Source of the DNA: a virus
Virus record (IMG/VR): IMGVR_UViG_3300045988_139474
Coordinates: 1-64,000 of that record
Strand: one strand, 5' to 3'
DNA length: 64,000 nucleotides
The notes below the pieces were generated by a model. It ran no database searches. It saw nothing but the letters and a program-made list of their open reading frames with translations, and had not been told where the DNA came from. This document shows, piece after piece, positions 296 to 61,943 of the stretch (positions are counted from its first letter, which is position 1; every line of letters begins with the position of its first letter). Made by a program: the position numbers and the translations under genes.

Positions 296-1246
296 TCAGG
301 CTGGTTGTTTCAACCCAAACAAGTAATAGCCCACGGCATTGTAGTACTCAGCCTGTTCTTTCGGAATCTTGAAGAAAGGGTCAGTAATATCCGACAGGAA
401 ATATGCTCCACCGCCAACAATAAACAGGTTATCAACTTTGTCTAAAATGTCGCCAAACTGGTCTTCAATGATGACTTTCAAATTCCCGATGTAGTCCAAT
501 TTTGCTTCTTGGATGAAGCTTGCTACTTCATAACTCACACCTCTTCGTTTGAAGCTGCCTTCGTTCAGGATTTGTCGGGCTTCAGTCAGGGTCAGATTAA
601 GGCCGTGAGCCTCTTTGACCTTCTCAATCAATGCTGAAGCAATGACGATAGCACCTTGCTTCTCAATACCTCGCAGCATGTTTGCAGAAGTCTTACCATT
701 AACTACATGGCATACATCCAAAGTTAGAAAGCCCACGTCACACAAGACATAGTTCAATTGCGGGTTGAAGTCTTTGCTGACTTGTGGGAATGTAGCACCG
801 TATCGGTCGATAGTCAGCTTGCTGGCTGCGCCTTGAGGTAATACAATCACTCGTACATCCTTGCCTAAGCCTTTGAACAGGTTTTCTACCGTCTCTTTGT
901 AATAGCCTGAATTGCTAACTTGAGCGATAGACAACCCCAAGACAATGATATCAGGCACGGAGATGTCCAAGTCCTTGATAGCCTTGAGCAGGAACAGCGG
1001 TGTCGCTTTCTCAAGGCGTGAGTAGTCGGAGATGTCGATAATGGCTGAGTTTTGAATACCCAATGCTGCATCACCAACATAGAATGAACGGCCTTCGTGC
1101 TCAATCAAGTTCACGTCATTCACCAGCGCATTCTTTTCAACTTGTGCAACGGCTGAGGGAAACTTGAAGATGTTTTTGACGGAATTGCTGTCGCCATAGA
1201 CAACTTTTACATCGCCAAAGCCAGTATCAACTGCTAAAATATTCAT
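296..1246 (-). CDS. ParM/Alp-type actin-like ATPase
   Basis: 316 aa. Actin-fold motifs MNILAVDTGFGDVKV, LCDVGFLTLDV, FIVGGGA and C-terminal NAVGYYLFG are colinear with R1 ParM (IDDGSTNIK / IIDLGGTTLD / VIGGGAE / LVNGMYLIG). Confidence 0.8.
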   Translation of the reverse strand: MNILAVDTGFGDVKVVYGDSNSVKNIFKFPSAVAQVEKNALVNDVNLIEHEGRSFYVGDAALGIQNSAIIDISDYSRLEKATPLFLLKAIKDLDISVPDIIVLGLSIAQVSNSGYYKETVENLFKGLGKDVRVIVLPQGAASKLTIDRYGATFPQVSKDFNPQLNYVLCDVGFLTLDVCHVVNGKTSANMLRGIEKQGAIVIASALIEKVKEAHGLNLTLTEARQILNEGSFKRRGVSYEVASFIQEAKLDYIGNLKVIIEDQFGDILDKVDNLFIVGGGAYFLSDITDPFFKIPKEQAEYYNAVGYYLFGLKQPA

Positions 1247-3559: not shown

Positions 3560-3596
3560 TACCTTATATTCTCAACAACCAATCTTAATTTTTCGC
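3560..3596 (-). promoter_or_regulatory. class I phage promoter motif
   Basis: Minus strand GAAAAATTAAGATTGGTTGTTGAGAATATAAGG, ~55 nt upstream of the ligA ATG. Confidence 0.6.
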
Positions 3597-5359: not shown

Positions 5360-6697
5360 TTATTGACGGATTTTCACGGTAGCAGGTACAGGAGCGGCAG
5401 GCACTTCACGCACTACAACCTCTCGTACAACTTCTTTGACTACAACAGGTTGAGCATGAGCTTTAGCAACACCGCCAAATACATAGCTCAGGCCGATAGC
5501 TGCGCCGAAATTACGGCGTGTGTCGTAGTTCAGGCCTGCCTTAGATACCCAACGACCGCTTTCAGAGATATGGCTAACGCCGACAGCAACTGCGCCCTCA
5601 TGTTTGAAACCGCCGACACCCATACCAATGGAGGATTGACCTGGTTGGTAGGCTTGAGGGATGATAGCAATAGCATTCGCGCCTGCTACGCCAGCACGGG
5701 ATTCACGGCGTTGGTCGTGCAAAGCTTTCTCAAAGCCATCTTGACGCGCCAAGAAGCCCTCAGTCAGTTTCTTCAATTCAGCAATCTGAACGTCTTGAGT
5801 TGTATTCCAATTGGTTTGCTGGTTGTTGTACTGGGTAGCAATAGCTTGTACCGTTTCAATCTTGGCTGAATTCTGCTCAATACGGATGGTGTTGTTAGAC
5901 ACCTGACCCGCAACCGCGTACAGCTGAGAACCGTTCACGGCATCAGTTGAAGTTGAGGTTACTTGACCCGCAGCAACGTTTTGCAATTGACGTTCATTAC
6001 CTTTAGAACCGAAAGAAACGGCTGAAGATGGGCGATGACCCGCAAATTTGCCGTATGTTACGCCATTGACTTCTGAAGTTACGGTTTGGGTGACGGTGCT
6101 AGTTGTAGAACCAAAGCCGACAGCCACGTCTTGGTAGTTTTTAGCATGAGCGTTTGTACCGATAGCGGTTGAGAATCGGGATTCCGCAGTCGCACCGCTA
6201 CCAATAGCAGTTGAAGATTGACCTTTAGCAACAGAGGCTTGACCGATAGCGGTAGAATAACCGCCCAAAGCGTTTGCGTGTTGACCGACTGCTACTGATA
6301 CTTCACCCTCAGCTGTAGCGTGAGAACCGCCTGCGAATGAGGCCTTGCCCTTAGCTTGAGTGGCTTTACCGATAGCCGTTGCGCTGTTACCAGTCACGCG
6401 TGAACCGCTACCGATAGCAACGGTCATATTTTCCTCAGAATAGGCCTTAAAGCCTGCTACCACGTTCATGTTACCATAGCTTTCGGCTTGCTGACCGATT
6501 ACAGTTGAAACTTTACCGCCAATTTGGTTGTTTCGACCGATATTTACATGGGATTGACCGACAACGAATTGGTCGTGACCTAATACTACATGGCCTGAGC
6601 CATATACTTCAGTCTTGCCAGTAACATTGACTATGTTTTCGGCCAATACAGGCATTGAGACGGCTGCGATAGCCAATGCGATTACAGAGTGTTTCAT
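5360..6697 (-). CDS. YadA-like trimeric autotransporter adhesin
   Basis: Sec signal MKHSVIALAIAAVSMPVLA; repeated head motifs (STAIG..A.A); neck NVAAGQ..STDAVNGSQLYAV; coiled-coil stalk; C-terminal Gly/Ala-rich beta-barrel anchor (GLNYD...GLSYVF). An extra ~35-aa V/E/P-rich tail follows. Confidence 0.85.
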   Translation of the reverse strand: MKHSVIALAIAAVSMPVLAENIVNVTGKTEVYGSGHVVLGHDQFVVGQSHVNIGRNNQIGGKVSTVIGQQAESYGNMNVVAGFKAYSEENMTVAIGSGSRVTGNSATAIGKATQAKGKASFAGGSHATAEGEVSVAVGQHANALGGYSTAIGQASVAKGQSSTAIGSGATAESRFSTAIGTNAHAKNYQDVAVGFGSTTSTVTQTVTSEVNGVTYGKFAGHRPSSAVSFGSKGNERQLQNVAAGQVTSTSTDAVNGSQLYAVAGQVSNNTIRIEQNSAKIETVQAIATQYNNQQTNWNTTQDVQIAELKKLTEGFLARQDGFEKALHDQRRESRAGVAGANAIAIIPQAYQPGQSSIGMGVGGFKHEGAVAVGVSHISESGRWVSKAGLNYDTRRNFGAAIGLSYVFGGVAKAHAQPVVVKEVVREVVVREVPAAPVPATVKIRQ

Positions 6698-8035: not shown

Positions 8036-8395
8036 TTACCAAGAAACTCTGTCAACCACCCGGCCGTAATACTGAATTGTATCCCAATCAATTTCAAAGC
8101 CGTCTGCCTTCAGCCTTTTAGCTAATTGCGCTTGGTCGATTATTGAGGCGATGTAGATAGTGGCGGAGGCTGATCCCTTCTTGTAATGATGATATGAATG
8201 GTCTAAATAAACCAGCTCAGAGTGTGCTCCAGAATCTTCCCATCTCAAGTCCAAGTCAGATGCGCCTTTAGCAGCGATTTCTTGTATGATGCCTAGTAGT
8301 CTTTCATACATCTCATCTGGAGCGCGTTTCTGGAATTCAGCTGTAGCTTGTCGGGCAATATCTGCGGCTTTCGGCTCGGATTTAAATTTTATCAT
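8036..8395 (-). CDS. family A small protein (~115-aa paralog family)
   Basis: Family pattern ...MYERLLGIIQEIAAKGASDLDLRW...LAKRLKADGFEIDW...VVDRVSW. Confidence 0.75.
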   Translation of the reverse strand: MIKFKSEPKAADIARQATAEFQKRAPDEMYERLLGIIQEIAAKGASDLDLRWEDSGAHSELVYLDHSYHHYKKGSASATIYIASIIDQAQLAKRLKADGFEIDWDTIQYYGRVVDRVSW

Positions 8396-15249: not shown

Positions 15250-15280
15250 GTAAATCTCACTAGCCAATCTTAATTTTTAG
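15250..15280 (-). promoter_or_regulatory. class I phage promoter motif
   Basis: TAAAAATTAAGATTGGCTAGTGAGATTTACAAG, directly after terminator 15282..15316. Confidence 0.6.
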
Positions 15281-26314: not shown

Positions 26315-26352
26315 TCATACTGTTATATCTCAATCACCAATCTTAATTTTTC
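26315..26352 (-). promoter_or_regulatory. class I phage promoter motif
   Basis: GAAAAATTAAGATTGGTGATTGAGATATAACAG, upstream of 26014..26286. Confidence 0.6.
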
Positions 26353-28439: not shown

Positions 28440-28472
28440 CCATAATATCTCAACAACCAATCTTAATTTTTA
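28440..28472 (-). promoter_or_regulatory. class I phage promoter motif
   Basis: TAAAAATTAAGATTGGTTGTTGAGATATTATGG. The TAA stop of 28463..29140 lies inside the motif. Confidence 0.6.
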
Positions 28473-29140
28473 CCTGATAATTCAGCCTTGACTAGCTCAT
28501 CAATCATCAAAGAATCATGAGGCTTCAGTTTATCAAGAATCCTCTTGTGCTCAGGCAATATAATCTTCTCAATCCTAGTCAAGTCAACAGTAGGGTTTTC
28601 AAGCAACATCGTTATATCGGCTAAATCGGGATAATCTCTGCCTGAGGATAGCTTCATTAGAATCAATCCCTCAATGCTAGCAATTCTAACTCCTGAATCT
28701 ACTTCGGCAGTCTTGTAGATATAGGATAAATATTTAACAGGCAAATTGATGAACTCAGGAGTCAATAAGTCAAGGGTAACTCCAGTTGATTTATGCTCAA
28801 TGTAATGACCGTTCAACACTTTGAACTTACTGCTTGCGCCAATCAATATTTTAGCCTTGCTAAGCCGATATTCAGACAAGAAGATAAAGTCAGCATCTTC
28901 GGTGCGCCTATTTCTGGCCCAGTAAGCAATCGCCATGCCTCCTACTAAAATCGGCTTATTCTTCCAGGGGATTCTTGAAAAGTCTTTGATAGCTTCCAGC
29001 ACCTCAGGGAATCCGTGAAGTGACTCAATCAAAGTCCTTTGACCAATGTTAGGGTATCTACATTTATTGGTGACTGTATTTACCCTGCCCATAGCCTCAT
29101 TAATCAGTTTAGTCCTAACCTTACGTTCAATCGGATTCAT
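28463..29140 (-). CDS. AbiEii/DUF1814-like nucleotidyltransferase-fold protein
   Basis: ILVGGMAIAYWARNRRTEDADFIFL fits the GG.A...R.T.D.DF signature of AbiEii-type NTases. 4-nt overlap with the upstream gene. Confidence 0.6.
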   Translation of the reverse strand: MNPIERKVRTKLINEAMGRVNTVTNKCRYPNIGQRTLIESLHGFPEVLEAIKDFSRIPWKNKPILVGGMAIAYWARNRRTEDADFIFLSEYRLSKAKILIGASSKFKVLNGHYIEHKSTGVTLDLLTPEFINLPVKYLSYIYKTAEVDSGVRIASIEGLILMKLSSGRDYPDLADITMLLENPTVDLTRIEKIILPEHKRILDKLKPHDSLMIDELVKAELSGKN

Positions 29141-51857: not shown

Positions 51858-51935
51858 TGGTGGGTGCCGCAGGACTCGAACCTGTCTGCCTACCGTTTAT
51901 GAGACGGCTGCTCATACCTCATGAGCTTGACACCC
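51858..51935 (-). tRNA. tRNA with anticodon CAT (elongator Met or Ile2), CCA encoded
   Basis: Minus strand folds as a cloverleaf: GGGTGTC AA GCTC ATGAGGTAT GAGC A GCCGT CTCATAA ACGGT AGGCAG ACAGG TTCGAGT CCTGC GGCACCC A CCA. 7-bp acceptor, T-loop TTCGAGT. One A-C mismatch in the T stem, and A instead of U at position 8. Confidence 0.8.
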
Positions 51936-52435: not shown

Positions 52436-52466
52436 CTGATATTCCATCAGCCAATCTTAATTTTTA
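52436..52466 (-). promoter_or_regulatory. class I phage promoter motif
   Basis: TAAAAATTAAGATTGGCTGATGGAATATCAGC, upstream of 52029..52406. Confidence 0.6.
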
Positions 52467-53345: not shown

Positions 53346-54275
53346 CTATCGTTTATGCTTGATAAGTATTCGTTTGTAGATTTCTTTACCGCCAATCGTA
53401 ACAGCCATATCAATATCCTCCGCCCAACCTTTAGGACGGCCATGGTTGTTCGAACAGCCAATCACTTCAAATTGGTCGGGATTATGTTTGAGAAAGAATG
53501 TAATAGGTACACCCATCACGCCATCATAGTCATGCGGGATGTTAGCAACTTTAGATACCTCAATAGCATCATAGTTGTCGTACTTCGGATGAGTTTCAGG
53601 GCTGTAGGCTTGTTGAAGAACCAACTTCTCAGGCCGTTTAGCATGGTCTAGGTTAGTGAACCAACTAACATTGCCTAGACTTCGCCACTTTCGGCCTTCC
53701 TCATCTTGACGATAACGTGTTGCTTTCGGCTCGTAGTAATCAGGCACTAAGAACTCCATATCATTCTTATTCGCACCTGCCCACATCTTATTGTCTCGCA
53801 ACAATTGAAAGATTCCATTATATGCAAAGGCATTCTGGTTACCAATTATCAAGAACTTCTTGTTATATTCAACCAATTGCGCTACATATTCCCGAAACAG
53901 AGAAAATGGCGGATTGGTTACAACAATGTCCGCTTGTTTCAGCAACTCGACGCACTCATCGCTGCGAAAGTCTCCGTCACCTTTCAACGGCTCGATTACC
54001 GCATTGCCCTCACCCCAGTATTCCGCCCGAACACCGTGCTCAGAATTTTCAGTTTTGTAACCGCTCGCAATCAGCTTCTTCAAGCCCAGCTGTTTGAAGT
54101 TGTCGAAGAAGTAACGAAAGAAGTTGCTAGCATTCGGGTCATCGCAATTGCAGTAAACAACTTTGGCCTTGAAATGTTGTTTGTAATGCTGCAATTCCTT
54201 TTCAATATCCGACAGCTGAGTGTAAAATTCATCATTCTCGTTTACTTTGGCTGCGTTGAGGAATTTATTAGTCAT
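53346..54275 (-). CDS. N6-adenine DNA methyltransferase (EcoRI-methylase-like family)
   Basis: N-terminal NDEFYTQLSDIEKEL and catalytic motif IV VVTNPPFSLF. Confidence 0.8.
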   Translation of the reverse strand: MTNKFLNAAKVNENDEFYTQLSDIEKELQHYKQHFKAKVVYCNCDDPNASNFFRYFFDNFKQLGLKKLIASGYKTENSEHGVRAEYWGEGNAVIEPLKGDGDFRSDECVELLKQADIVVTNPPFSLFREYVAQLVEYNKKFLIIGNQNAFAYNGIFQLLRDNKMWAGANKNDMEFLVPDYYEPKATRYRQDEEGRKWRSLGNVSWFTNLDHAKRPEKLVLQQAYSPETHPKYDNYDAIEVSKVANIPHDYDGVMGVPITFFLKHNPDQFEVIGCSNNHGRPKGWAEDIDMAVTIGGKEIYKRILIKHKR

Positions 54276-54335
54276 ACCAAATCCCTTGTGTGTTCATAGT
54301 GGCTTCCTTTCTTGTTTCCTGCGGTTGTTCCGCTT

Positions 54336-54402
54336 CTCACAATACACAAAGAACGAAAGGGCGCAAAAGCGCATTTATTTTAAAATATTTTCGATTTTTC
54401 TA
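54336..54402 (-). promoter_or_regulatory. class II promoter-like repeat
   Basis: AAATGCGCTTTTGCGCCCTTTCGTTCTTTGTGTATTGTGAG (TTGCGC-16-TATTGT), upstream of the methyltransferase gene. Confidence 0.45.
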
Positions 54403-54467
54403 TAAGTCGTTGTTTTGCTTAAGAAGAAAGTTTATTCAGGCTTCAGTCTCTGCTCTTGACTGAACCC

Positions 54468-54535
54468 ACTCACAATACACAAAGCACCGTGAGATGAAAA
54501 AGCGCATTTAGCGGAAAATATTTTTCGATTTTCTT
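54468..54535 (-). promoter_or_regulatory. class II promoter-like repeat
   Basis: AAATGCGCTTTTTCATCTCACGGTGCTTTGTGTATTGTGAG. Second copy, 130 nt upstream of the first. Confidence 0.45.
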
Positions 54536-54590
54536 GCAGCATTTTCGGAGCGGTCGGAGGGCTGGGTAGAGGGGACAGCATGCACTGCTA

Positions 54591-54765
54591 ATTTGCAATA
54601 TGAATCTTGTAACGGTTGGGATTCCGTACATAAAGACAAGATTTTGACTAAAAATTTCCTTGCGAAAACAATCGACTATCCACGAAATATACGATTTCAA
54701 TGTCATAGATGTGATACACAATATACACACAAGTATTATATATCTAATAATTAATAAAACAGACA
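54591..54765 (+). repeat. ~170-bp repeat unit U1 (plus orientation)
   Basis: TTGCAATATGAATCTTGTAACGGTTGGGATTCCGTACATAAAG..GATTTTGACTAAAAATTTCC..CTATCCACGAAATATACGATTTCAATGTCATAGATGTGATAC, then AT-rich TATTATATATCTAAT. Confidence 0.85.
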
Positions 54766-54968
54766 CTCACCCCAATATCCGTGAGACTGCTACAGCCATG
54801 AGAGTGAAATCAGTCATTCATCCTTCTGCTGAGTCTCTCTTCTTACAATCATGAGCCCAAGCAAGGATTCCTCCGACCGAAAACAAGCATACACTGAGAT
54901 TGAAACAAGGACTGTTCTGCTTGCGTTGTGATGATTGAGCAAGCTAGAACTGAAACCAGTCAAGCAGT
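54766..54968 (+). ncRNA. candidate non-coding transcript L1 downstream of U1
   Basis: No credible ORF. Shares blocks (ACAGCCATGAG, CATCCTTCTGCTGA, GACTGTTCTGC.TGCGT, CTCCGACCG) with the minus-strand leaders downstream of U4 and U5. Confidence 0.3.
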
Positions 54969-55170
54969 CATGAATCTTGAGGCGTGAGCTACTGATTTGA
55001 AAACTGAAGCCTGTAGGGAACAGGAATCGGAACATAAATACAGGATTTTGGCTAAAAATTTCCCTGATTTATTAGAAACTTATCCACGAAATATACGATT
55101 TCAATGTCATAGATGTGATACAAATAGATAACACACAAGTATATATAGATTATAGAAAGAAAACAGACAC
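54969..55170 (+). repeat. ~170-bp repeat unit U2 (plus orientation)
   Basis: ..GGAATCGGAACATAAATACAGGATTTTGGCTAAAAATTTCCCTGATTTATTAGAAACTTATCCACGAAATATACGATTTCAATGTCATAGATGTGATAC, then TATATATAGATTAT. Confidence 0.85.
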
Positions 55171-55310
55171 TGATATTCTTCTGCTGCACACTCACTCAAC
55201 TAAGGAATCAGACGGCCTAAAGACTGAAATCAATCATCATGAAAGATTCTTCTCAATCCTGCTGAAGCATGAAAACAGCCCTGCTGTGTTACCAGAGGGC
55301 TGATGTTTTC
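55171..55310 (+). ncRNA. candidate ~140-nt non-coding transcript L2 downstream of U2
   Basis: Runs from the AT-rich end of U2 to the terminator hairpin 55276-55302. Only a motif-less 62-codon ORF overlaps it. Confidence 0.3.
55271..55310. terminator. bidirectional terminator hairpin
   Basis: CAGCCCT (55276-82) pairs with AGGGCTG (55296-302). A T-run follows on both strands (plus ATGTTTTCGG; minus TTTTCATGC). It lies between convergent units. Confidence 0.6.
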
Positions 55311-55444
55311 GGCCTGATTAAAATTAAGCCAAAATTCCGCGAAAATTAGCTGGGTCGGGATTCTGCCCAAGTCGTTTACCATTCAAGGTCGCTAAAATCG
55401 AAACTAGACTGCTCTGCGCTTGAATACGGCTGTGAAGCTTAAAA

Positions 55445-55951
55445 TTAGCGACTTAAGAATTCTCTGCTGGAGGCCTGTTTGGCTTCGTCTAGCAACTTGT
55501 ACGCCAATTTTCGGCCTGCTGTACTAATGGCCAGCTTGACGGTCGGTGCGAGATTGGGTTCATATGCTCCGTCCATAGTCTTGATGTAGCAGATTCTGAA
55601 ATTCAACTGTTGATTAGCAGCTGTCTGTCTCAAGATACTTTCAAATGCTGGCGGGGTCATGATTTCATACACCGACAAGACGATTGACCGCAACAACTCT
55701 GCATTCGTCTCATCCAGCCGTACATTCAACAATTCCTGGGGCAACTGGATGTATCTGTCCAAGTCCAGCGGTCGGATACCGCAGGGGATGTTAATCAGAT
55801 TGCTTTCAGGCAACAGCTTGTTGTATTCCTCAATTGATGAAAACAGCTTGGCGGATAGCCTGTTCTGCCAATAGCGTGATGATTTCATGTAGTGCAGCTG
55901 CTCTTCTGAAAGCTCAGCCCATTGTTCCTTGACGGGTCTCAATAACGTCAT
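55445..55951 (-). CDS. hypothetical protein
   Basis: 168-aa ORF. Last gene before the bidirectional terminator 55271..55310. Confidence 0.7.
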   Translation of the reverse strand: MTLLRPVKEQWAELSEEQLHYMKSSRYWQNRLSAKLFSSIEEYNKLLPESNLINIPCGIRPLDLDRYIQLPQELLNVRLDETNAELLRSIVLSVYEIMTPPAFESILRQTAANQQLNFRICYIKTMDGAYEPNLAPTVKLAISTAGRKLAYKLLDEAKQASSREFLSR

Positions 55952-56253
55952 GATTCCTCCCTCCCAAAATTGGGGTGACGCAATCTTCTTGGGACATTGT
56001 ATCTCGGAGCAAACTGAGGGTCACCAACAGCAACAGCCGTCCAGTATCCGTTGCGCTGAACTATCTGGTATTTGCAACCTAGCTCAACATCGCCAAATCG
56101 GCCAGCTAGAAACTCGAATAGCAACTGGTGAGCTTTAGTCATAGCTTGAGGTGTCGTAACGTTAGGAACAGCCGATATAGCCCGATAGCCGTCAAGTAGC
56201 TTGACTTCTGTATCGGGGTCTATCTCAACCGTCATAATCTCGTGAAACAGCAT
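55948..56253 (-). CDS. hypothetical protein
   Basis: Start moved to ATG 56253 (MLFHEIMTVE; SD AAGGAG). Confidence 0.65.
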   Translation of the reverse strand: MLFHEIMTVEIDPDTEVKLLDGYRAISAVPNVTTPQAMTKAHQLLFEFLAGRFGDVELGCKYQIVQRNGYWTAVAVGDPQFAPRYNVPRRLRHPNFGREES

Positions 56254-56263
56254 GTACGACTCC

Positions 56264-56428
56264 TTACTGGCGGTTGTGTTGTTTCCATAGTGCAAACATA
56301 TCATCCCATGAACCTAATTCCATGAGCAATACGCTGAATTCAACTGGCTTACCGTCAATCAGGTACATGCCAGGACATGTTCTGTTCAGGTGTTCGTTGA
56401 ATTGGGTTGTTTGATTTGCGTTCATCAT
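56264..56428 (-). CDS. hypothetical small protein (54 aa)
   Basis: Hand-translated MMNANQTTQFNEHLNRTCPGMYLIDGKPVEFSVLLMELGSWDDMFALWKQHNRQ. ATGA overlap with the upstream stop. Confidence 0.45.
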   Translation of the reverse strand: MMNANQTTQFNEHLNRTCPGMYLIDGKPVEFSVLLMELGSWDDMFALWKQHNRQ

Positions 56429-56880
56429 TTGCCTCCTAAAGATTGAATGGCCTGGTTGAAGTCGATAGCTAGCTGTACGGCCTTAACAACTAGCTCCTTG
56501 TTAGTCATCCTGCTGTACTCACCTGAGGTAACCATGCTATTGAGCAAGACATTAGCCCTTGACTCAACAGACTTGTCAGACGGTAGGATAGCGGTATTGT
56601 AATCAATCTGACTAGCAGCCCAGATAGTCTCAATCTGAGCATGCTTGAAAGAGATAGGCTGGCCTGAATAGCTCTTGCCTGTCTTCTCACGAATCTTGAA
56701 GACACCATAGCAGTAGCAATCATCAATGCTAATCTGATTGACGGCCAGTATGCAGTCTGAACCTGCTAACTGGACGAAGAACCATGCACCGTGACTACAA
56801 GTCATATACTTCCAAGTGCTGAAATCTCTGGCTGCTGTTCCCTCGTCTGGGACAGTCGTGATTCTGTTAACAACTTGCAT
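56425..56880 (-). CDS. hypothetical protein
   Basis: 151-aa ORF in a tight operon. Confidence 0.7.
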   Translation of the reverse strand: MQVVNRITTVPDEGTAARDFSTWKYMTCSHGAWFFVQLAGSDCILAVNQISIDDCYCYGVFKIREKTGKSYSGQPISFKHAQIETIWAASQIDYNTAILPSDKSVESRANVLLNSMVTSGEYSRMTNKELVVKAVQLAIDFNQAIQSLGGK

Positions 56881-56881
56881 T

Positions 56882-57130
56882 TCAGCCTCCTTTCGTCCAG
56901 TTATCCTGTTCTGGATGATATGGAATCTTTTTCCTGAGCGGGCCAGGGGCAGTAGGTTGAGTTGACTTACGCGGCAACTGCTTAACCACTAGGCCAAGAT
57001 GCTTCTGCATTTTATGCATCTGCTCATACAACTCGTCAATTTCCTGACGTTGCTCTCTTACTTGACGGCGCAAGCTTCTCAGCTCAATATCTATCGACTT
57101 CAGGTCAAATTCTAATTCTGACTGTTTCAT
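56882..57130 (-). CDS. small coiled-coil protein
   Basis: Start moved to ATG 57130 (MKQSELEFDL). Heptad-rich, Arg/Gln-rich helix. Confidence 0.6.
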   Translation of the reverse strand: MKQSELEFDLKSIDIELRSLRRQVREQRQEIDELYEQMHKMQKHLGLVVKQLPRKSTQPTAPGPLRKKIPYHPEQDNWTKGG

Positions 57131-57144
57131 CTTCAGCCTACCTT

Positions 57145-58641
57145 TCAATTAACGCGTTCGTGTATCGTCTTGAATTTTACAATCAGCCCATTATCGGCCT
57201 TGAAATGTCTCGGCTTAATCCATGTCATAGCAGCTGTAGCCAAATTATTGAACAGCAGAATCTCCATGACTACCTTGCCTAGCTCTAGTGTCGCTAAAGC
57301 AAACTGTTTGTCTTTCTCACGCTTCATCTCAATCAGATGAAAGGTCTTTTCGGCCTTTAGCTCTTCATAAATCTCATGCTGCAACTTAGTGCCTGGAACT
57401 TTCGGAGTGCGTTGCAAGGCTTCTTTCAAGTATGATTGAGTCGGTAATGTCGCATAGCCCTCAACCGTGATATTGACACTCGGCACTTCGATATATGGCT
57501 GAGGCTCTGCAAAAGGCTCAGAAACCGTTTTTGGCTTATAGAAGCCGTTAGCGTCAACGCCGTATCCCGACAACTCATAGTATGGCGAAGGCGTTTTGAG
57601 CTTATCCTCGTCTCGTTTTGACAGGATAAATCGGATTACTTCCAATTCTGCTTTTAGTCGGTAGGCGTTCATATAAACCGCTTTGATACCGTCAAAATCA
57701 TTCGGCTTCAAGTCTTCTTGACTGACGATATCAAGCCCGCACAGAGGGATATGTACTTCATCATCACGCACCTTGTACACATACCCATTCTCATCCAGAT
57801 AAGGCAGCAATTCCTTGCTTGTAACCAATGTCGGCATATTCAGTTTGCCGTCTCGGATAATCGACAGATTGCGATAAACACGGACAACATGTTTCTTGCC
57901 GTTAGGTTGAGTAAGGATAGCGTCAGCTGCATACATCAGATTGAGGTTAGCGCGTGAACGATTCGGCACGATTTCAACACGGTACAGTTTGTCTCGGACA
58001 ATATCAACTGTTTCACCCTGCCAGTCGGTCGTTTCGGCCTTAGCTCGCTGAGTTATCACTTTTGACTTGTAGGGGTTCACCAATGCCTTATGCTCAATAA
58101 TAGCAGCCATGAGGTTCATGAGTGTCTTCTTGTTTGAGTAAGCCAGCACTTTATCTTCGCAAGGCTTTTCGGCTTCCTCTTCGCTTTGAGTATCACCCAA
58201 GATAGCTTCAATCGCCTTATCGGGATTCTGCAATGCTTCTGAGCTCAACACGAAATTAGCTAAGTCTTTGCGACGCAGATTGTAGGCGCAAACATTAGCA
58301 GCTGAAACAGGTCTGCGTTTGAAGATAGCAACAGCAATCTTACGGATGACGCTATCAGGCACATCTTTACAATTCATGTAAACAGCTTCAGGCGCACCCA
58401 ACAGGCTTGAGAAAGACTTGCCCTTGTAATTGCGACTGCGGTATTGACGCGGAATCAGAAACAATTTGGCAGTATCTGACTGAGCCAAGTCTTTGAGGTC
58501 AGTAGCAAATTCCATTTCATCTAGGTCAATGCCTGAAATGCTACTGTCTGTTGTTTGCAGTTTGAATCGGGTATCAGCATCCATTAGGACAGCTTCAAAC
58601 CGTACACCTGAAAGCTGTATCAGGAAGAGTGTTGGGTTCAT
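57145..58641 (-). CDS. hypothetical protein (498 aa)
   Basis: Long ORF behind class I promoter 58672..58703. No recognisable motif. Confidence 0.75.
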   Translation of the reverse strand: MNPTLFLIQLSGVRFEAVLMDADTRFKLQTTDSSISGIDLDEMEFATDLKDLAQSDTAKLFLIPRQYRSRNYKGKSFSSLLGAPEAVYMNCKDVPDSVIRKIAVAIFKRRPVSAANVCAYNLRRKDLANFVLSSEALQNPDKAIEAILGDTQSEEEAEKPCEDKVLAYSNKKTLMNLMAAIIEHKALVNPYKSKVITQRAKAETTDWQGETVDIVRDKLYRVEIVPNRSRANLNLMYAADAILTQPNGKKHVVRVYRNLSIIRDGKLNMPTLVTSKELLPYLDENGYVYKVRDDEVHIPLCGLDIVSQEDLKPNDFDGIKAVYMNAYRLKAELEVIRFILSKRDEDKLKTPSPYYELSGYGVDANGFYKPKTVSEPFAEPQPYIEVPSVNITVEGYATLPTQSYLKEALQRTPKVPGTKLQHEIYEELKAEKTFHLIEMKREKDKQFALATLELGKVVMEILLFNNLATAAMTWIKPRHFKADNGLIVKFKTIHERVN

Positions 58642-58671
58642 AATTCATCACCTATCTGTCGGGTTGTAGGT

Positions 58672-58703
58672 TGTTATCTTTCAACAGCCAGTGGTAATTT
58701 TTA
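58672..58703 (-). promoter_or_regulatory. class I-like promoter motif (degenerate)
   Basis: TAAAAATTACCACTGGCTGTTGAAAGATAACAAC, upstream of 57145..58641. Confidence 0.4.
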
Positions 58704-58979
58704 AATCAGTCGTTGTTGTCCTGCTTTCAAGTACCAAGTCAGTACTCCTGCAGACACGCAGAGGAAAGACTCAACGGCTCGTTGTTTTGAGAGTGTAGCG
58801 AAGTTAGCAGGGTCGCAGAACATGATTTCAGGCTCATCTGCCTCAGGGTATTTCAGCTTCACAAGAAACAAGTTATCCTCAAGTTCATGTTCAGAAAAGA
58901 CTTCAGTCATTTCAGGTAATGTTTGCTCAACCATCAATTGATGTTTGAAGCGTGGTAGCAGTGTATTGTTCATTCGCAT
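58701..58979 (-). CDS. hypothetical protein
   Basis: 92-aa ORF behind class I promoter 59012..59042 and repeat unit U3. Confidence 0.65.
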   Translation of the reverse strand: MRMNNTLLPRFKHQLMVEQTLPEMTEVFSEHELEDNLFLVKLKYPEADEPEIMFCDPANFATLSKQRAVESFLCVSAGVLTWYLKAGQQRLI

Positions 58980-59011
58980 GTTTGTTATTTCCTTGTCTGG
59001 TTATTCATGAT

Positions 59012-59042
59012 TTATAGTCTCAGCAACCAATTATAATTTTTA
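59012..59042 (-). promoter_or_regulatory. class I phage promoter motif (variant)
   Basis: TAAAAATTATAATTGGTTGCTGAGACTATAAATC, upstream of 58701..58979. Confidence 0.55.
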
Positions 59043-59169
59043 TCAGCCCTGTCAGCACAGGGTTCAGTCGGTCGGATAGCTGAGGATTGAGATTTCAGTT
59101 TCATGGCTGTTAGTCGATTAAGTGGTGATTGAGGTCTGATTGTGAGGGCTGAGGAATGATTGTTTTCCG

Positions 59170-59335
59170 TCTAGTTAATATAATATAGAACGTTGTATTT
59201 GGGTTTGGTATCACATCTATGAGTTTGGAATTGGATATTTCGTTGATAACTCGTTGAAATAAAGCAGGAATTTTTAGCCAAAATCTTGGTTTTATGTACG
59301 GAATCCCAACTATTACAAGATTCAGTTTCCAATTC
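59170..59335 (-). repeat. ~170-bp repeat unit U3 (minus orientation, most diverged)
   Basis: The reverse complement aligns with U1/U2: ..GAATCTTGTAATAGTTGGGATTCCGTACATAAAACCAAGATTTTGGCTAAAAATTCC..TTATCAACGAAATATCCAATTCCAAACTCATAGATGTGATAC. Confidence 0.8.
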
Positions 59336-59350
59336 CTGCTATTGCGTTGC

Positions 59351-60169
59351 TTAAAGCTCTGAATTAGTCATGCTTGAGTCGATGTAATTCAGCACAGGCC
59401 GTCTCAGCTTCTCACTCACTGTACCAGAAGTCATCTCAGCTTGCTGTCCTGGTACAGGCTTGTCGCTTGAGGGCTTCTTGTAGTTGCGTTTGTTCTTCTG
59501 AGCTCGTTTGAACTCTTCCTTATCAATCCCTAGCTTCTTCTGCAAGTCCTCTTGAACTTCACCCCATGTAAGGGACTTACCCTCAGCCAGATAGCCGTCA
59601 TAGATTTTAGCATAAGTCTTAGACAGGCCTAAAGCAGGGTCAGACACTTTGATTTCTCGCAACAGTTTATCCTTGTCAACCAGGCCTGCTTTCATGTAGG
59701 TTACGAAGTCTGTCTGTGATTGAAGCTTCTGAGGAGCAGCAACCAGCCACATGAGTGCAAGGTCTAATGGCTGAGCAACTGGGACTTTGACTCCAAACAT
59801 CATGCGCGGTTTAGCTCGGTGAACGGCTGAGGCGTAAGGGTCAAAGCCGATATTGAACAGCAGGTCATAAGTCTTAGTCTTACCACCGCCTTGAGCAGCT
59901 TTCATCTGATACTGCCCAGCACCTACTTCCTTGAAGTCAAATTCGTCTGCTAAGGCTTCCATGACTTCATCTTCGTCTGAGATGACTAGCAAGTCTAGGT
60001 CTTGAGTTGCTCTCGGTTTGGGTGCATATTCGTTGTAGGCTAATCCACCCACGATACAGTACTCAAAGTCATTCTCAGTCATGACTGCTATCAGTCGCTT
60101 GAACTGGGACTTGAAGTCTTTGTAGCCTAATGCTTCATATGCTTTGAGTAGCTCGGCACTTCTGGACAT
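59351..60169 (-). CDS. AbiEii-like nucleotidyltransferase-fold protein with basic C-terminal tail
   Basis: CIVGGLAYNEYAPKPRATQDLDLLVI fits the same GG.A...R.T.D.D signature as 28463..29140. Lys-rich tail (KRAQKNKRNYKKPSSDK). Confidence 0.55.
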   Translation of the reverse strand: MSRSAELLKAYEALGYKDFKSQFKRLIAVMTENDFEYCIVGGLAYNEYAPKPRATQDLDLLVISDEDEVMEALADEFDFKEVGAGQYQMKAAQGGGKTKTYDLLFNIGFDPYASAVHRAKPRMMFGVKVPVAQPLDLALMWLVAAPQKLQSQTDFVTYMKAGLVDKDKLLREIKVSDPALGLSKTYAKIYDGYLAEGKSLTWGEVQEDLQKKLGIDKEEFKRAQKNKRNYKKPSSDKPVPGQQAEMTSGTVSEKLRRPVLNYIDSSMTNSEL

Positions 60170-60256
60170 ACATTTCCTTTCAATTTTGAAAACTGGCTAA
60201 AATCGCCAAAATTAACGCGGTTAGAACGCTGCTTGGGCGAATGCTTGCTCAACTCG

Positions 60257-60640
60257 TTAAAAGTTGCTCTCGGTCGCTGCTAGGCCGTCTATTACGCGTT
60301 TGCGGTAAATCCTCATCACTCGGTCTTGAACAACGTCTCCGTGACAGGGATGAGGGCTACACCAGCAGAAAAGTCGGATATCATAGCCTTTCAGCAATTC
60401 TTCAACTAATCTACTGATAATCTTGTATTCTCTTGATTGGGTATCAGCCAGCTGCTTATCAAGATATTCAGCATACAAAGGGATACACTTGCCTCTTCCA
60501 TGTTCTTCAACAGTGAAAGGATTTCCTAAGCCTAATGCTTCATAAGGCGGTGTTGAGCCCCTTCCTATGTAATACTGTTTAACTTGAGGATTCTGGTCGT
60601 AGCTCATCTTGCGGATATTTTCAACTGTAATCCTGCTCAT
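60257..60640 (-). CDS. DUF4326-like protein
   Basis: YYIGRGS...LGNPF...YAEYL...RLFCWCSPHPCHGDVV fits the DUF4326 pattern (YvGR...GNPf...L.C.C.p..CHgdvl). Confidence 0.6.
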   Translation of the reverse strand: MSRITVENIRKMSYDQNPQVKQYYIGRGSTPPYEALGLGNPFTVEEHGRGKCIPLYAEYLDKQLADTQSREYKIISRLVEELLKGYDIRLFCWCSPHPCHGDVVQDRVMRIYRKRVIDGLAATESNF

Positions 60641-60659
60641 ATTGTCCCTCCTTGAGTCT

Positions 60660-60689
60660 TGATATCTGTTCAGCCAATTCTAATTTTTC
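60660..60689 (-). promoter_or_regulatory. class I phage promoter motif (variant)
   Basis: GAAAAATTAGAATTGGCTGAACAGATATCAAG, upstream of 60257..60640. Confidence 0.55.
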
Positions 60690-60905
60690 AGTCAGTTCAG
60701 TCTCAGGTTTCGTGTTAACATGACTGATTGAGAGCTCAGTCAGCAGAAGGATGTATGATTGTTTTCATCTCTAGGCTGACCAATCATCAGTCAGCCAGAC
60801 GGTCTAAGCTAGGGATTTTCGGCTCATGACTGTTAGTTTCCTTGTTCTTCTGATTCTAGCCTGCTACTCACACACGCAGGCAGAACAGTCTCATGTTTTT
60901 CATTC

Positions 60906-61000
60906 TCATGGTTTGAGATTCTGTTTTCAATTTCATGATTTCAGCCTCATGGCTTGAGATTCTGTTTTCAATTTCATGATTTCAGTCTCATGGCTGTTTG
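60906..61000. repeat. 41-nt direct tandem repeat, ~2.3 copies
   Basis: TCATGG(T/C)TTGAGATTCTGTTTTCAATTTCATGATTTCAG(C/T)C at 60906-60946 and 60947-60987. A partial third copy starts at 60988. Confidence 0.85.
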
Positions 61001-61044
61001 TTAGATTGAGGATTTCTATGCATGACTGTTCTCAAGTCTCAAAG

Positions 61045-61212
61045 ATTAATTTATTAGTTATATAATACCTGTGGTGTTGATATTGTATCACATCTATGAC
61101 ATTGAAATCGTATATTTCGTGGATAACTCGTTGTAACTCAATAGAAATTTTTAGACAAAATCTTGGACTTATGTACGGAATCTTGGCGGGTACAGAATCT
61201 AGATTGCAGTTT
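61045..61212 (-). repeat. ~170-bp repeat unit U4 (minus orientation)
   Basis: Reverse complement: ..GATTCCGTACATAAGTCCAAGATTTTGTCTAAAAATTTC..TTATCCACGAAATATACGATTTCAATGTCATAGATGTGATAC, then GGTATTATATAACTAAT. Confidence 0.85.
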
Positions 61213-61424
61213 CTGTATCCCAGCAGCAAGATTCATCAGTCAATCATTGATTTCCCTCTAATTGCTCAAGCAAGGATTTCAGTTTGTTCCCTTCCTGCTG
61301 ACTCAGGCTCCATACGGTCGGAGAAAGCCTCAGCAGTCTCAAATTTCTGTTTTTCATGCTCATGGCTGTAAAGTCTCAATTCAGGGCTTGGTTGAGTGTT
61401 GAAGAGGGTGTCAGGGTTGTTATT

Positions 61425-61592
61425 CTTCTATTAGATAATATATAATCTGTGGTTGTGTATTTGTATCACATCTATGACATTGAAATCGTATATTTCGTGG
61501 ATAAGTTTCTAATAAATCAGGGGAATTTTTAGACAAAATCCTGTCTTTATGTTCCGATTCCCAGCCGTTACAAGATTCATATTGCAAATCAG
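61425..61592 (-). repeat. ~170-bp repeat unit U5 (minus orientation)
   Basis: Reverse complement: TTGCAATATGAATCTTGTAACGGCTGGGAATCGGAACATAAAGACAGGATTTTGTCTAAAAATTCCCCTGATTTATTAGAAACTTATCCACGAAATATACGATTTCAATGTCATAGATGTGATAC. Confidence 0.85.
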
Positions 61593-61594
61593 CA

Positions 61595-61631
61595 ATAAAA
61601 AAGCCCTGCTAGCATGAAACTAACAGGGCTG
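61595..61631 (-). terminator. rho-independent terminator
   Basis: AGCCCTG-loop-CAGGGCT followed by TTTTTTATTG on the minus strand, after 61653..61943. Confidence 0.75.
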
Positions 61632-61652
61632 GGGTTGGGGTATGACTGTAGG

Positions 61653-61943
61653 CTAACGGAACAGCTCAGGGTGAGCTATCTCAAGGTCGATACAAGTGTT
61701 GCGGTAGTCAGGGTCAATGAAGGCATCTACTGACTCATTGCCCTCTTCGTCCACGATTGTCCGTTTCAAGCCTAAGACTGCTGAGTGTGTATTATTCATG
61801 TAATACTCTTCCATTACAATCAGCTTCTCACCATCACGGGATTCCACTTGGTCTTGAGAAAACTCGCAGTCAAGATTGCCGGCATATCGCTCTAACTCGG
61901 AAAGCTCGCATTCTACCATCACGTCATCTAATTGCTCATCCAT
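61653..61943 (-). CDS. small, very acidic protein
   Basis: 96 aa, roughly a quarter Asp/Glu. Followed by terminator 61595..61631. Confidence 0.65.
   Translation of the reverse strand: MDEQLDDVMVECELSELERYAGNLDCEFSQDQVESRDGEKLIVMEEYYMNNTHSAVLGLKRTIVDEEGNESVDAFIDPDYRNTCIDLEIAHPELFR

What the first reader, a model, noticed from the sequence alone, without database searches (positions are those of the whole stretch)
54591..61592. Five copies of a ~170-bp repeat in two inverted sets bracket a 5.5-kb gene block
U1 (54591-54765) and U2 (54969-55170) lie on the plus strand. U3 (59170-59335), U4 (61045-61212) and U5 (61425-61592) are their reverse complements. The shared core is long and almost identical: TTATCCACGAAATATACGATTTCAATGTCATAGATGTGATAC, preceded by GATTCCGTACATAAAG-CAAGATTTTG-CTAAAAATT. 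Each unit ends in an AT-rich stretch with a TATTAT/TATATA/TATATT hexamer 16-20 nt after GTGATAC, a sigma70-like layout. If these are promoters, U3-U5 fire into the minus-strand genes, as expected. U1 and U2 would then fire the opposite way, into ORF-less DNA and head-on against the 55445-58979 operon. About 3 kb of repeat-rich non-coding DNA is very unusual in an otherwise gap-free phage region. Candidate roles: an early-promoter battery with leader RNAs, a replication origin, a recombination or inversion substrate, or proximity to the physical genome ends.
Basis: seen in the sequence. Interest (0 to 1): 0.85.

Follow-up and report, generated by a model that had tools for sequence, protein, structure and literature searches.

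The report
Repeated promoter-like modules with non-coding tails
An uncultured ~150-kb phage, probably of oral Neisseria, carries at least nine copies of a highly conserved ~170-bp promoter-like DNA module. Each copy is followed by a stretch with no gene but with a conserved RNA hairpin, so the five repeats are real but do not form a gene-bracketing switch.

Summary
The five repeats are real, at the stated coordinates give or take about 10 nt. A 41-nt core is exact in four copies and occurs nowhere else in the 64 kb. They do not bracket anything in particular. The same genome has four more copies in an ORF-free 2.2-kb array just left of the window. Relatives carry 11 or more copies, and 88 were found in all, only in one clade of human-oral phages. 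The host is probably a commensal Neisseria, because the window is enriched in DNA uptake sequences.

The ~170-nt unit is a DNA-level element. It has no consensus fold, no covariation and no Rfam match, and conservation collapses just after an AT-rich TATTAT-like block. Downstream "bodies" have stops in all frames. They show strand-specific CTGA/TGA and C-over-G bias, a conserved box (AGCCATGAG) and a hairpin with compensatory changes.

The genes after U3 and U4 carry a separate gene-proximal promoter-like motif of their own, with 24 sites in the window, all on the coding strand.

Best reading (about 45%): self-contained transcription modules that make non-coding RNAs. Replication origin, inversion switch, genome ends and PeSL membership are not supported. 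The function of the RNAs is unknown.

The parts
54583..54746 (+). U1 unit: conserved DNA module, TGAATCTTGT ... GATTTTGACTAAAAATT ... TATCCACG..GTGATAC, then an AT-rich TATTAT block
   Evidence: nhmmer; exact 41-mer at 54677-54717; GTGATA-17-TATTAT; folds no better than shuffles, z -0.16
54747..54987 (+). U1 body, with no ORF. It has a C-rich/G-poor start, Box 1 at 54793-54811, the covarying hairpin at 54916-54947, and a tail (AGTCATGAATCTTGAG) running into U2.
54988..55151 (+). U2 unit
   Evidence: nhmmer; exact 41-mer at 55081-55121
55152..55444 (+). U2 body, with no ORF. It runs head-on toward the 3' end of the operon at 55445-58979. It contains a DUS-like CAGACGGCC at about 55208. A hairpin AGCCCTG..CAGAGGGCT followed by GATGTTTTCGG at 55277-55309 is a weak terminator-like site.
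   Evidence: sequence
59179..59339 (-). U3 unit, with the diverged core allele AATTCCAAACTCATAGATGTGATAC
58980..59178 (-). Region between U3 and gene 58979: Box 1 at 59091-59109, a hairpin CCCTGTGCTGACAGGG, then the separate gene-proximal motif AAAAATTATAATTGG at 59027-59041 just before the SD and ATG
61057..61217 (-). U4 unit
   Evidence: exact 41-mer at 61085-61125; GTGATA-18-TATTAT
60641..61056 (-). Region between U4 and gene 60640, 416 nt with no ORF. Box 1 copies lie at 60978-60996 and 60937-60955, inside a 41-bp tandem duplication (60898-60979). The covarying hairpin is at 60856-60884, and a second hairpin is GGCTGAC..GTCAGCC. The gene-proximal motif is at 60674-60688.
   Evidence: RNA fold z -2.92
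61433..61595 (-). U5 unit
   Evidence: exact 41-mer at 61463-61503
61218..61432 (-). U5 body, with no ORF: Box 1 variant CAGCCATGAGCATGAAAAAC at about 61349-61368, and the tail GATTGACTGATGAATCTTG running into U4
61602..61630 (-). Intrinsic terminator of the upstream gene (61653-61943), ending about 7 nt before U5. It insulates the unit from upstream transcription.
   Evidence: 12-bp stem, then TTTTTTATT

Best explanation
Each repeat is the control region of a self-contained transcription module. The ~170-bp unit is double-stranded DNA read by proteins. It has an upstream platform of conserved words (GAATCYTGT, GGATTC, CAAGATTTTGGCTAAAAATT), an invariant 40-nt core, and an AT-rich -10-like block where RNA polymerase would start.

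Transcription then runs into a 150-450-nt 'body' that encodes no protein. The body keeps a fixed order of RNA-level features:
- a C-rich, G-poor, unstructured start;
- the box CAGCCATGAGACTGAAA;
- a hairpin UUCUGCYUGC-[GUGUGA-type loop]-GCARGCWAGAA;
- DUS-like words;
- a tail that abuts the next unit.

Modules stand alone in intergenic spaces or are stacked 2-5 deep into ORF-free arrays. They occur in either orientation relative to neighbouring genes, and tandem copy number drifts by unequal recombination.

What is shown: the repeat family, its restriction to one phage clade, the lack of RNA structure in the unit, the absence of ORFs in the bodies, the strand bias of the bodies, the covarying hairpin, and purifying selection on the unit and leader.

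What is inferred: that the AT-rich block is a start site, which polymerase uses it (host sigma-70 enzyme or the phage's own beta'-containing enzyme), when it fires, and what the RNAs do.
For: 1. Family and spread. There are 5 copies in the window and 4 more in the same genome. There are 88 hits in all loci fetched. One 141.8-kb contig has at least 11 copies over 80 kb in both orientations. A scan of 185,579 bacterial and archaeal genomes gave no hit. More distant phages that share rIIB at 32-40% identity have no comparable repeats.

2. The unit is not a folded RNA. RNAalifold on 59 distinct copies gives -1.8 kcal/mol. A single-sequence fold has z -0.16. The apparent s1/s3 covariation vanishes on testing (Fisher p = 1.0). 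Rfam gives no match.

3. The conservation profile looks like a promoter. It is near-maximal up to GTGATAC, moderate through CACAAGTATTATATA-CTAATAA, then about zero. First units of arrays share no conserved upstream sequence, and U5 starts 7 nt after a terminator.

4. The bodies are non-coding and strand-specific. Stops occur in all frames and TGA is 3-4 times expected. CTG is 3.6x and TGA 3.4x expected, against CAG 1.3x and TCA 1.8x for their complements. The segment before Box 1 is 31% C and 12% G.

5. The hairpin covaries. 90.6% of cells are paired, against 27-47% in slid controls. Five pairs change on both sides, and one pair is CG in 19 and UA in 15 sequences with one mismatch. The hairpin pattern occurs only in bodies, on the unit's strand, in the window, L008 and L012.

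6. Constraint. Between the window and relative L199, the U3 unit is 88% identical and its leader 90%, against 74% at fourfold-degenerate sites of neighbouring genes (z about 3.5 by my own calculation).

7. Independence from protein genes. What follows a unit is another unit in 36 cases, a convergent gene in 20 and a same-strand gene in 13. An opposed unit never follows. One unit lies antisense between two long co-directional ORFs (L004, unit at 8341). Genes after U3 and U4 have their own promoter-like motif.
Against: - There is no transcript data, so the start site, direction and timing are all inferred.
- The sigma-70 match is mediocre. GTGATA matches TTGACA at 4 of 6 positions. The distance to the best -10-like hexamer ranges from 15 to 20 nt. 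Promoter-like hits in the region are no more frequent than in shuffles (19 against 16.3).
- The 'promoter' is better conserved among paralogues than the 'product', the opposite of most ncRNA genes. The key activity may therefore be at the DNA itself.
- No terminators separate tandem units, so discrete RNAs would need processing or Rho.
- Apart from the hairpin, the U1 body folds no better than shuffles (z -0.47).
- The core and Box 1 form a 15/19 inverted repeat without covariation. This hints at a DNA-binding protein acting on both sides of the AT-rich block.
Confidence: 0.45

Rival explanations
1. This is the first reader's main idea: a battery of early promoters for protein-coding genes. 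Host RNA polymerase starts at each unit, the bodies are long 5' leaders, and tandem copies simply boost early expression of the downstream operons.
For: - U3 and U4 point into same-strand genes.
- The neighbourhood (rIIA/rIIB-like, Tad2-like, DUF4326, ORFans) looks like an early or host-takeover region.
- A conserved linear box plus a hairpin downstream of a promoter resembles lambda nut or HK022 put antitermination signals (my knowledge, not tested).
- Many T4 genes have both early and middle promoters (my knowledge). The extra gene-proximal motif therefore does not exclude this reading.
Against: - Only 13 of 69 units are followed by a same-strand gene, while 20 face a convergent gene.
- ORF-free arrays of 2-5 units are conserved across genomes.
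- One unit lies antisense between two co-directional genes.
- Genes after U3 and U4 have their own promoter-like motif 20-40 nt from the SD.
Confidence: 0.2
2. The units are protein-binding DNA platforms whose job is not transcription. Candidates are multiple replication origins, centromere-like sites for the phage's actin-like ALP partition protein, or packaging or nucleoid-organising sites. On this view the AT-rich block is an unwinding element.
For: - The unit is better conserved than what follows it.
- It contains repeated 9-mers in inverted and direct order (GAATCTTGT / ACAAGATTC / ACAAGATTT).
- It has a DnaA-box look-alike, TTATCCACG.
- The core and Box 1 form a 15/19 inverted repeat without covariation.
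- An actin-like ALP gene lies 2 kb from the 4-unit array.
Against: - The DnaA-box positions 4-6 vary, and the last base is an invariant G rather than A.
- Having 9-14 dispersed copies is odd for an origin, centromere or pac site.
- GC skew does not reverse.
- The bodies carry strand-specific composition and a covarying hairpin. These features point to a single-stranded, most simply RNA, product.
Confidence: 0.12
3. The units are mainly recombination substrates. Either they are PeSL-like cassettes that shuffle genes between phages, or they are inverted repeats that flip the 4-kb block between U2 and U3.
For: - Tandem copy number differs between relatives. The U1/U2 position holds 2, 3 or 4 units. 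U4+U5 is a single unit in L030 and L035.
- The methylase gene next to U1 is present or absent between relatives.
- 41-nt exact identity in opposite orientation is enough for homologous recombination.
Against: - Four independent genomes (the window, L020, L015/L021 and ODNI01000015) are collinear across the whole region, with no inverted form seen.
- No recombinase domain was found in the block.
- Indel end points are not at the units. The methylase indel ends about 300 nt from U1, and a 1.2-kb insertion lies at about 61.92-61.96 kb.
- Recombination explains copy-number drift. It does not explain why the unit and leader are more conserved than neutral sites.
Confidence: 0.08
4. The ~170-nt unit is itself a structured non-coding RNA or ribozyme, transcribed from further upstream.
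For: - The sequence is long and highly conserved.
- At first sight there was apparent hairpin complementarity between GAATCTTG and CAAGATT(C/T).
Against: - RNAalifold gives -1.8 kcal/mol over 175 columns.
- There is no covariation.
- The single-sequence fold has z -0.16.
- Rfam gives no hit even at E <= 5.
- First units have no conserved upstream promoter, and U5 follows a terminator.
Confidence: 0.03

Closest known systems
PeSLs (promoter-early stem-loop cassettes) of T4-like phages (PMC2839356, PMC4122927)
   Same: Both are multi-copy, roughly 100-bp-scale conserved promoter-containing cassettes. Both are scattered through the plastic early regions of a large lytic phage. Both are capable of recombining with each other, with copy-number or indel differences between close relatives.
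   Different: PeSLs combine a strong sigma-70 promoter with a stem-loop terminator. They sit directly between a stop codon and the SD/ATG of the next ORFan. Here the unit has no stem-loop. It is followed by 150-450 nt of non-coding sequence or by another unit. It forms ORF-free arrays, and gene-content breakpoints are not at the units.
Tandem strong early promoters at the leading end of T7 (A1, A2, A3) and early-promoter clusters of T5/SPO1 (my knowledge, not tested here)
   Same: Several promoters of one type stacked in tandem in a non-coding stretch, firing the same way.
   Different: Those clusters lie at one genome end and lead into early genes. Here the arrays are dispersed, occur in both orientations, and often face convergent genes. 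The conserved part is 3-4 times longer than a sigma-70 promoter.
Lambda nut (boxA + boxB) and HK022 put antitermination RNA elements (my knowledge)
   Same: Each has a promoter-proximal linear box followed by a hairpin whose loop is conserved while the stem covaries, repeated downstream of each promoter of one class.
   Different: There is no sequence similarity and no N-like protein was identified. The nut/put elements occur twice per genome and always lead into operons, not ORF-free arrays.
Sibling sRNA arrays and phage pseudo-ToxI repeat arrays (my knowledge)
   Same: Tandemly repeated non-coding transcription units. In the pseudo-ToxI case a phage uses a repeat RNA as a decoy.
   Different: ToxI-type repeats are 36 nt and processed by a cognate nuclease. 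Sibling sRNAs have their own terminators and a conserved RNA part. Here the period is 380-810 bp, there are no terminators, and the best-conserved part is the untranscribed unit.

Membership tests
Bacterial sigma-70 promoter | -35 hexamer close to TTGACA and -10 hexamer close to TATAAT (A2, T6), 16-18 bp apart | tested here: inconclusive
   GTGATA matches 4 of 6. TATTAT, TATATT or TATATA is present. U1 and U4 score 9/12 with 17-18 bp spacers. Across 59 copies the best hexamer lies 15-20 nt away. Promoter-like hits in the region are no more frequent than in shuffles.
Bacterial sigma-70 promoter | A mapped transcription start a few nt downstream of the -10 | not testable with these tools
   No RNA data. 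The only indirect sign is that conservation drops to background about 12-15 nt after the AT-rich block.
PeSL cassette (T4-like phages) | A stable stem-loop (terminator/attenuator) inside or overlapping the promoter | tested here: not met
   There is no consensus structure in the unit and the fold z is -0.16. Only U5 has a terminator, which belongs to the upstream gene.
PeSL cassette (T4-like phages) | Lies between the stop codon of one ORF and the SD/ATG of the next | tested here: not met
   The next same-strand gene is 167-750 nt away in 13 cases. 36 units are followed by another unit and 20 by a convergent gene.
PeSL cassette (T4-like phages) | Gene insertions, deletions or replacements between close relatives have their end points in the cassettes | tested here: inconclusive
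   Unit copy number varies. The methylase indel and a 1.2-kb insertion end outside the units.
Replication origin with DnaA boxes | TTATNCACA boxes with fixed T4, C6 and A9 | tested here: not met
   In TTATCCACG, positions 4-6 have low information (variants include TTATCAACG, TTAGTCACG, TTACCAACG). Position 9 is an invariant G.
Replication origin with DnaA boxes | One or a few loci per genome, with a strand-compositional switch | tested here: not met
   There are at least 9 copies in this genome and at least 11 in ODNI01000015. GC skew stays near zero with no sign change across -9.7 to +70 kb.
Invertible DNA segment | Both orientations exist in populations, and a site-specific recombinase is encoded nearby | tested here: not met
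   Four genomes are collinear. No recombinase was found in Pfam, PHROGs, NCBIfam or PADLOC for the block proteins.
Known RNA family (Rfam 15) | A covariance-model match at or near the gathering score | tested here: not met
   Only tRNA-Met at 51861-51935 reaches the threshold. The best lenient hits are chance-level, at or below 26.5 bits against gathering scores of 48-70.
Physical genome ends / terminal repeats | Located at the termini of the packaged DNA | tested here: inconclusive
   The units lie at about 24.8-31.8 kb and about 88.5-90.1 kb of a 154,035-bp contig. The contig ends were not retrievable. The many short contigs that end in units are repeat-induced breaks.

The most novel reading that the evidence does not exclude
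The modules are a new class of phage non-coding RNA genes, and the RNA is the product that matters. The arrays would be factories for CUGA-rich RNAs that carry a conserved GUGUGA-loop hairpin. These RNAs could act as decoys or sponges for a host RNA-binding factor or defence nuclease, or as cis-acting anti-termination RNAs. They would be driven by an unusually long dedicated promoter, read by a phage-specific factor or by the phage's own RNA polymerase.
Probability: 0.22. Interest if true: 0.8.

Novelty: new variant of a known kind. Interest (0 to 1): 0.6.

Why it matters
Large lytic phages are normally packed with genes. Here at least 4.7 kb of an approximately 154-kb genome (2.55 kb in the window plus a 2.2-kb array) is ORF-free sequence built from one conserved module. 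This sequence is kept under purifying selection across a whole clade of human-oral phages.

If the modules are transcribed as predicted, they define a new phage ncRNA family and a new promoter class. They would be found in phages of commensal Neisseria, a host group with almost no characterised lytic phages. They would also offer a handle on how a phage with its own RNA polymerase schedules transcription.

On the practical side, the units break short-read assemblies of these phages. Knowing this helps to close their genomes.

Tried and rejected
1. RNA hairpin in the unit (GAATCTTG pairing with CAAGATT). It looked compensatory in 5 copies, but 59 copies show no association and no alifold structure.

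2. Long-range pairing between the core and Box 1. They are 15/19 complementary in consensus, but there is no covariation (observed 13.35 pairs against 13.46 when shuffled).

3. Small peptide starting at the Box 1 ATG (MRLKS...). There is no SD. ORF lengths range from 5 to about 39 codons with unrelated sequences, and TGA is enriched in all frames.

4. Structure in the tail motif (TGACTGATGAAACTTG, reminiscent of a hammerhead CUGAUGA). Alifold gives 0.0 kcal/mol and Rfam gives no ribozyme hit.

5. Sigma-54 and CRP/FNR-type sites in the unit. By eye the spacing and key bases are not conserved. This is inference only.

6. DNA similarity to isolated phages. Megablast and blastn against 50,697 phage records found nothing.

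7. Looser pattern scans of IMG/VR (14-mer core; Box 1). These returned mostly chance hits, and only one further contig had true units.

8. Stronger conservation of the unit than of neighbouring genes. This is not the case at the nucleotide level: 88% against 85-93%. Only the comparison with fourfold sites (74%) shows constraint.

9. Function of the bracketed proteins. They are ORFans apart from DUF4326 and a weak AbiEii-like nucleotidyltransferase match in the 272-aa protein.

Full report
**1.

A repeat search and a profile built from the five copies place the units as follows:

| Unit | Coordinates | Strand |
|---|---|---|
| U1 | 54583-54746 | + |
| U2 | 54988-55151 | + |
| U3 | 59179-59339 | - |
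| U4 | 61057-61217 | - |
| U5 | 61433-61595 | - |

- The 41-mer TATCCACGAAATATACGATTTCAATGTCATAGATGTGATAC is exact in U1, U2, U4 and U5. With up to three mismatches it occurs nowhere else in the 64 kb, and no shuffle gave any match.
- U3 has a diverged allele of the core but keeps CATAGATGTGATAC and GATTTTGGCTAAAAATT.
- All long ORFs in the window are on the minus strand.
- The stretches 54276-55444, 58980-59350 and 60641-61652 have no credible ORF.

**2. Source and host**

- The window is 100% identical over the 11,246 nt that L008 shares with it, and over its overlap with L012. Both loci come from ENA contig ERZ27263344:k119_126914 (154,035 bp), read in reverse.
- It has no DNA match among 50,697 isolated-phage records.
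- It encodes an RNA polymerase beta'-like protein, a family-A DNA polymerase, a helicase, a primase and an NAD ligase. It also encodes an actin-like ALP protein, an rIIB-like protein and an EcoRI-type methylase.
- The closest isolated relatives by beta' are only 27-34% identical.
- The Neisseria DNA uptake sequence GCCGTCTGAA occurs five times in the window. About 0.1 is expected by my calculation. Two of the copies are in the AG-DUS form typical of N. subflava, N. flavescens, N. mucosa and oral taxa (PMC3630211).
- The samples include Human Microbiome Project contigs (IMG/VR 7000000351) and ERR589xxx runs that I recall, unverified, as an oral/gut metagenome study.
- The host is therefore probably a commensal oral Neisseria. 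This is an inference.

**3. The five copies belong to a larger dispersed family**

- In the same genome four more units stand in tandem in an ORF-free 2.2-kb gap (L008 13374-14929). This lies 2.1-3.7 kb left of window position 1. It sits between small genes downstream of the ALP gene and convergent late-type genes such as DUF7217 and a muramidase.
- None occurs in the ~8 kb right of the window that could be fetched.
- Pattern scans found the units in IMG/VR and ENA metagenome contigs. A profile search counts 88 hits in all loci held.
- One 141.8-kb contig (ODNI01000015.1) has at least 11 copies over 80 kb, in both orientations.
- No bacterial or archaeal genome among 185,579 species has the core.
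- Phages that share rIIB at only 32-40% identity have no comparable repeats.
- Fifteen short-read contigs end inside a unit. One 75.5-kb contig ends in the same unit, inverted, at both ends. These are assembly breaks, not genome termini.

**4. Anatomy of the unit**

- Fifty-nine distinct copies give a sharp information profile.
  - It is near-invariant from TGAATCYTGT through GGATTCCGWACATAAA, CARGATTTTGNCTAAAAATT and TTATCCACGAAATATACGATTTCAATGTCATAGATGTGATAC. The first and last of these are interrupted by, respectively, a variable 5-nt and a variable 15-17-nt stretch.
  - It is moderate through CACAAGTATTATATA-CTAATAA.
  - It is at background beyond that.
- In tandem copies the conservation extends about 55 nt further upstream (AATCAATCATTGACTGATGAAACTTG...).
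- The unit is not a folded RNA.
  - RNAalifold gives -1.8 kcal/mol.
  - U1 folds no better than shuffles (z -0.16).
  - The complementarity that looked compensatory in five copies shows no association in 59.
  - Rfam has nothing even at E <= 5.
- The DnaA-box look-alike TTATCCACG varies at positions 4-6 and ends in an invariant G, so it is not a DnaA box.
- The unit is best read as double-stranded DNA recognised by proteins.
This is a mediocre sigma-70 match and is not enriched over shuffles.

**5. Anatomy of what follows**

- After the AT-rich block comes a 150-450-nt body with stops in every frame. TGA is 3-4 times the expected count.
- The elements keep a fixed order:
  - a C-rich, G-poor stretch (A 0.35, C 0.31, G 0.12, T 0.22);
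  - Box 1, CAGCCATGAGACTGAAA, in 49 of 59 copies, 44-180 nt after GTGATA;
  - CTGCTGAAGCATGA;
  - a hairpin TTCTGCYTGC-[GTGTGA-type loop]-GCARGCWAGAA, in 39 of 59 copies;
  - DUS-like words;
  - the tail.
- The hairpin covaries.
  - 90.6% of cells are paired, against 27-47% when the partner is slid.
  - Five of 11 pairs change on both sides.
  - One pair is C-G in 19 sequences and U-A in 15, with a single mismatch.
- In the window, L008 and L012 the hairpin pattern occurs only in bodies and only on the unit's strand. The window copies are at 54916-54947 (+) and 60856-60884 (-).
- Word bias is strand-specific. CTG is 3.6x and TGA 3.4x expected, against 1.3x for CAG and 1.8x for TCA.
- These features are the mark of a single-stranded product read in the direction the unit points, most simply RNA.
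- Apart from the hairpins the bodies are not strongly structured (z -0.47 for the U1 body and -2.92 for the U4 leader).

**6. Relation to genes**

A second motif, AAAAATTAAGATTGG-N4-TGAGATAT-N5-TATNAAC, is far more common.
- It has 24 matches with up to 3 mismatches, all on the coding strand, against 4.2 expected.
- It typically lies 20-40 nt before an SD and ATG.
- Copies sit at 59027-59041 (between U3 and gene 58979), at 60674-60688 (between the U4 leader and gene 60640) and at 58688-58702.
- The genes 'served' by U3 and U4 therefore have their own promoter-like element.

Across all copies the next feature downstream of a unit is as follows:

| Next feature downstream | Count |
|---|---|
| Another unit, same direction | 36 |
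| Convergent gene | 20 |
| Same-strand gene | 13 |
| Contig end | 15 |
| Opposed unit | 0 |

One unit lies antisense between two long co-directional ORFs. The modules therefore behave as independent insertions in intergenic space.

**7. Evolution**

- Orthologous arrays in two genomes are 87% identical over 1.77 kb, both in units and in bodies.
- Against a more distant relative (L199), the U3 unit is 88% identical and the aligned leader 90%. Fourfold-degenerate sites of three neighbouring genes are 74% identical. Both unit and leader are therefore under constraint.
- Copy number drifts. The U1/U2 position holds 2, 3 or 4 units. U4+U5 is one unit in L030 and L035.
- Gene order and orientation across 53-64 kb are the same in four independent genomes.
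- The block proteins are clade-restricted ORFans with no recombinase.
- GC skew shows no reversal near the units.

**8. Interpretation**

- Best supported: each unit is the control region of a self-contained transcription module whose product is a non-coding RNA. Modules occur singly or in arrays.
- What is shown is the anatomy, the strand-specific RNA-type signals, the constraint, and the independence from ORFs.
- The start site, the polymerase, the timing and the role of the RNA are inferred.
- Two facts keep confidence moderate. There are no transcript data, and the untranscribed unit is better conserved among paralogues than the body.
- A 15/19 inverted repeat between the core and Box 1, without covariation, suggests a DNA-binding protein acting on both sides of the presumed start.
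- Rivals are weighed in their own sections. They are an early-promoter battery with 5' leaders, a non-transcriptional DNA platform, a recombination cassette, and RNA made of the unit itself.

**9. Comparison with known systems**

- The closest described elements are the PeSL cassettes of T4-like phages (PMC2839356, PMC4122927).
- The present units resemble them in being multi-copy, promoter-containing and recombinogenic.
- They fail two defining features: an integral stem-loop, and direct abutment on the next ORF's SD/ATG.
- They add two things PeSLs lack: a conserved non-coding body, and ORF-free arrays.
- I rate this a new variant of a known kind (repeated phage promoter cassettes). There is a real chance that it is a new ncRNA class.

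Noticed in passing
window, 24 sites on the minus strand (e.g. 3579-3593, 15264-15278, 26337-26351, 28457-28471, 52451-52465, 59027-59041, 60674-60688): There is a second, much more frequent promoter-like motif, AAAAATTAAGATTGG-N4-TGAGATAT-N5-TATNAAC. It lies 20-40 nt upstream of an SD and ATG. All copies are on the coding strand (24 found, 4.2 expected). It is probably the phage's main gene promoter class. It shares the words AAGATT and AAAAATT with the units.
   Followed up: partly
window 63627 (+), 3196, 35432, 37351, 63933 (-); DUS-like words inside bodies, e.g. about 55208 and L008 13160, 13772, 15119: The Neisseria DNA uptake sequence GCCGTCTGAA occurs 5 times in 64 kb, twice as AG-DUS. 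This points to a commensal oral Neisseria host. It is odd for a lytic phage to carry uptake signals.
   Followed up: partly
window 57145-58641 (-): This 498-aa ORFan is found in only 9 protein clusters among 5.8 billion. It is only 69% identical at the nucleotide level to its orthologue in L199, while neighbouring genes are 85-93% identical. It is a fast-evolving gene in the middle of the 'bracketed' block.
   Followed up: partly
window 53346-54275 (-): The EcoRI-type adenine methylase gene next to U1 is absent from relatives L020 and L015. It is a clean ~940-bp presence/absence difference.
   Followed up: partly
window 54336-54401 and 54469-54534: Two tandem 66-nt repeats lie upstream of the methylase start. 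On the minus strand they read AGAAAAATCGAAAATATTTT...GCGC...CTTTGTGTATTGTGAG. They occur nowhere else in the window and may be another regulatory element at the head of the 54-kb gene block.
   Followed up: partly
window 60898-60979 (-): A 41-bp tandem duplication (93% identical) inside the U4 leader carries Box 1 twice.
   Followed up: no
window 296-1246 (-), 5360-6697 (-), 28463-29140 (-), 59351-60169 (-); L012 1113-1382: Unusual cargo was seen: an actin-like ALP (ParM-type) protein, a YadA-like adhesin-domain protein, two AbiEii/DUF6036-like nucleotidyltransferases, and a Tad2-like (anti-Thoeris) gene just right of the window.
   Followed up: no
L199 8032-8910: A relative carries an IS605 OrfB/TnpB-like gene between the dUTPase gene and the next block. 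It is absent from the window.
   Followed up: no
L001 2-129, L006 10411-10545, L013 10349-10431, L202 both ends, L199 start (poly-T then a unit): Short-read assemblies of these phages break inside the invariant core of the units. One contig ends in the same unit, inverted, at both ends.
   Followed up: yes
window 54677-54717 with 54793-54811, and the equivalent pairs in the other units: The core segment GATTTCAATGTCATAGATG and Box 1 CAGCCATGAGACTGAAATC are reverse complements at 15 of 19 positions, at variable distance and without covariation. This is unexplained.
   Followed up: yes
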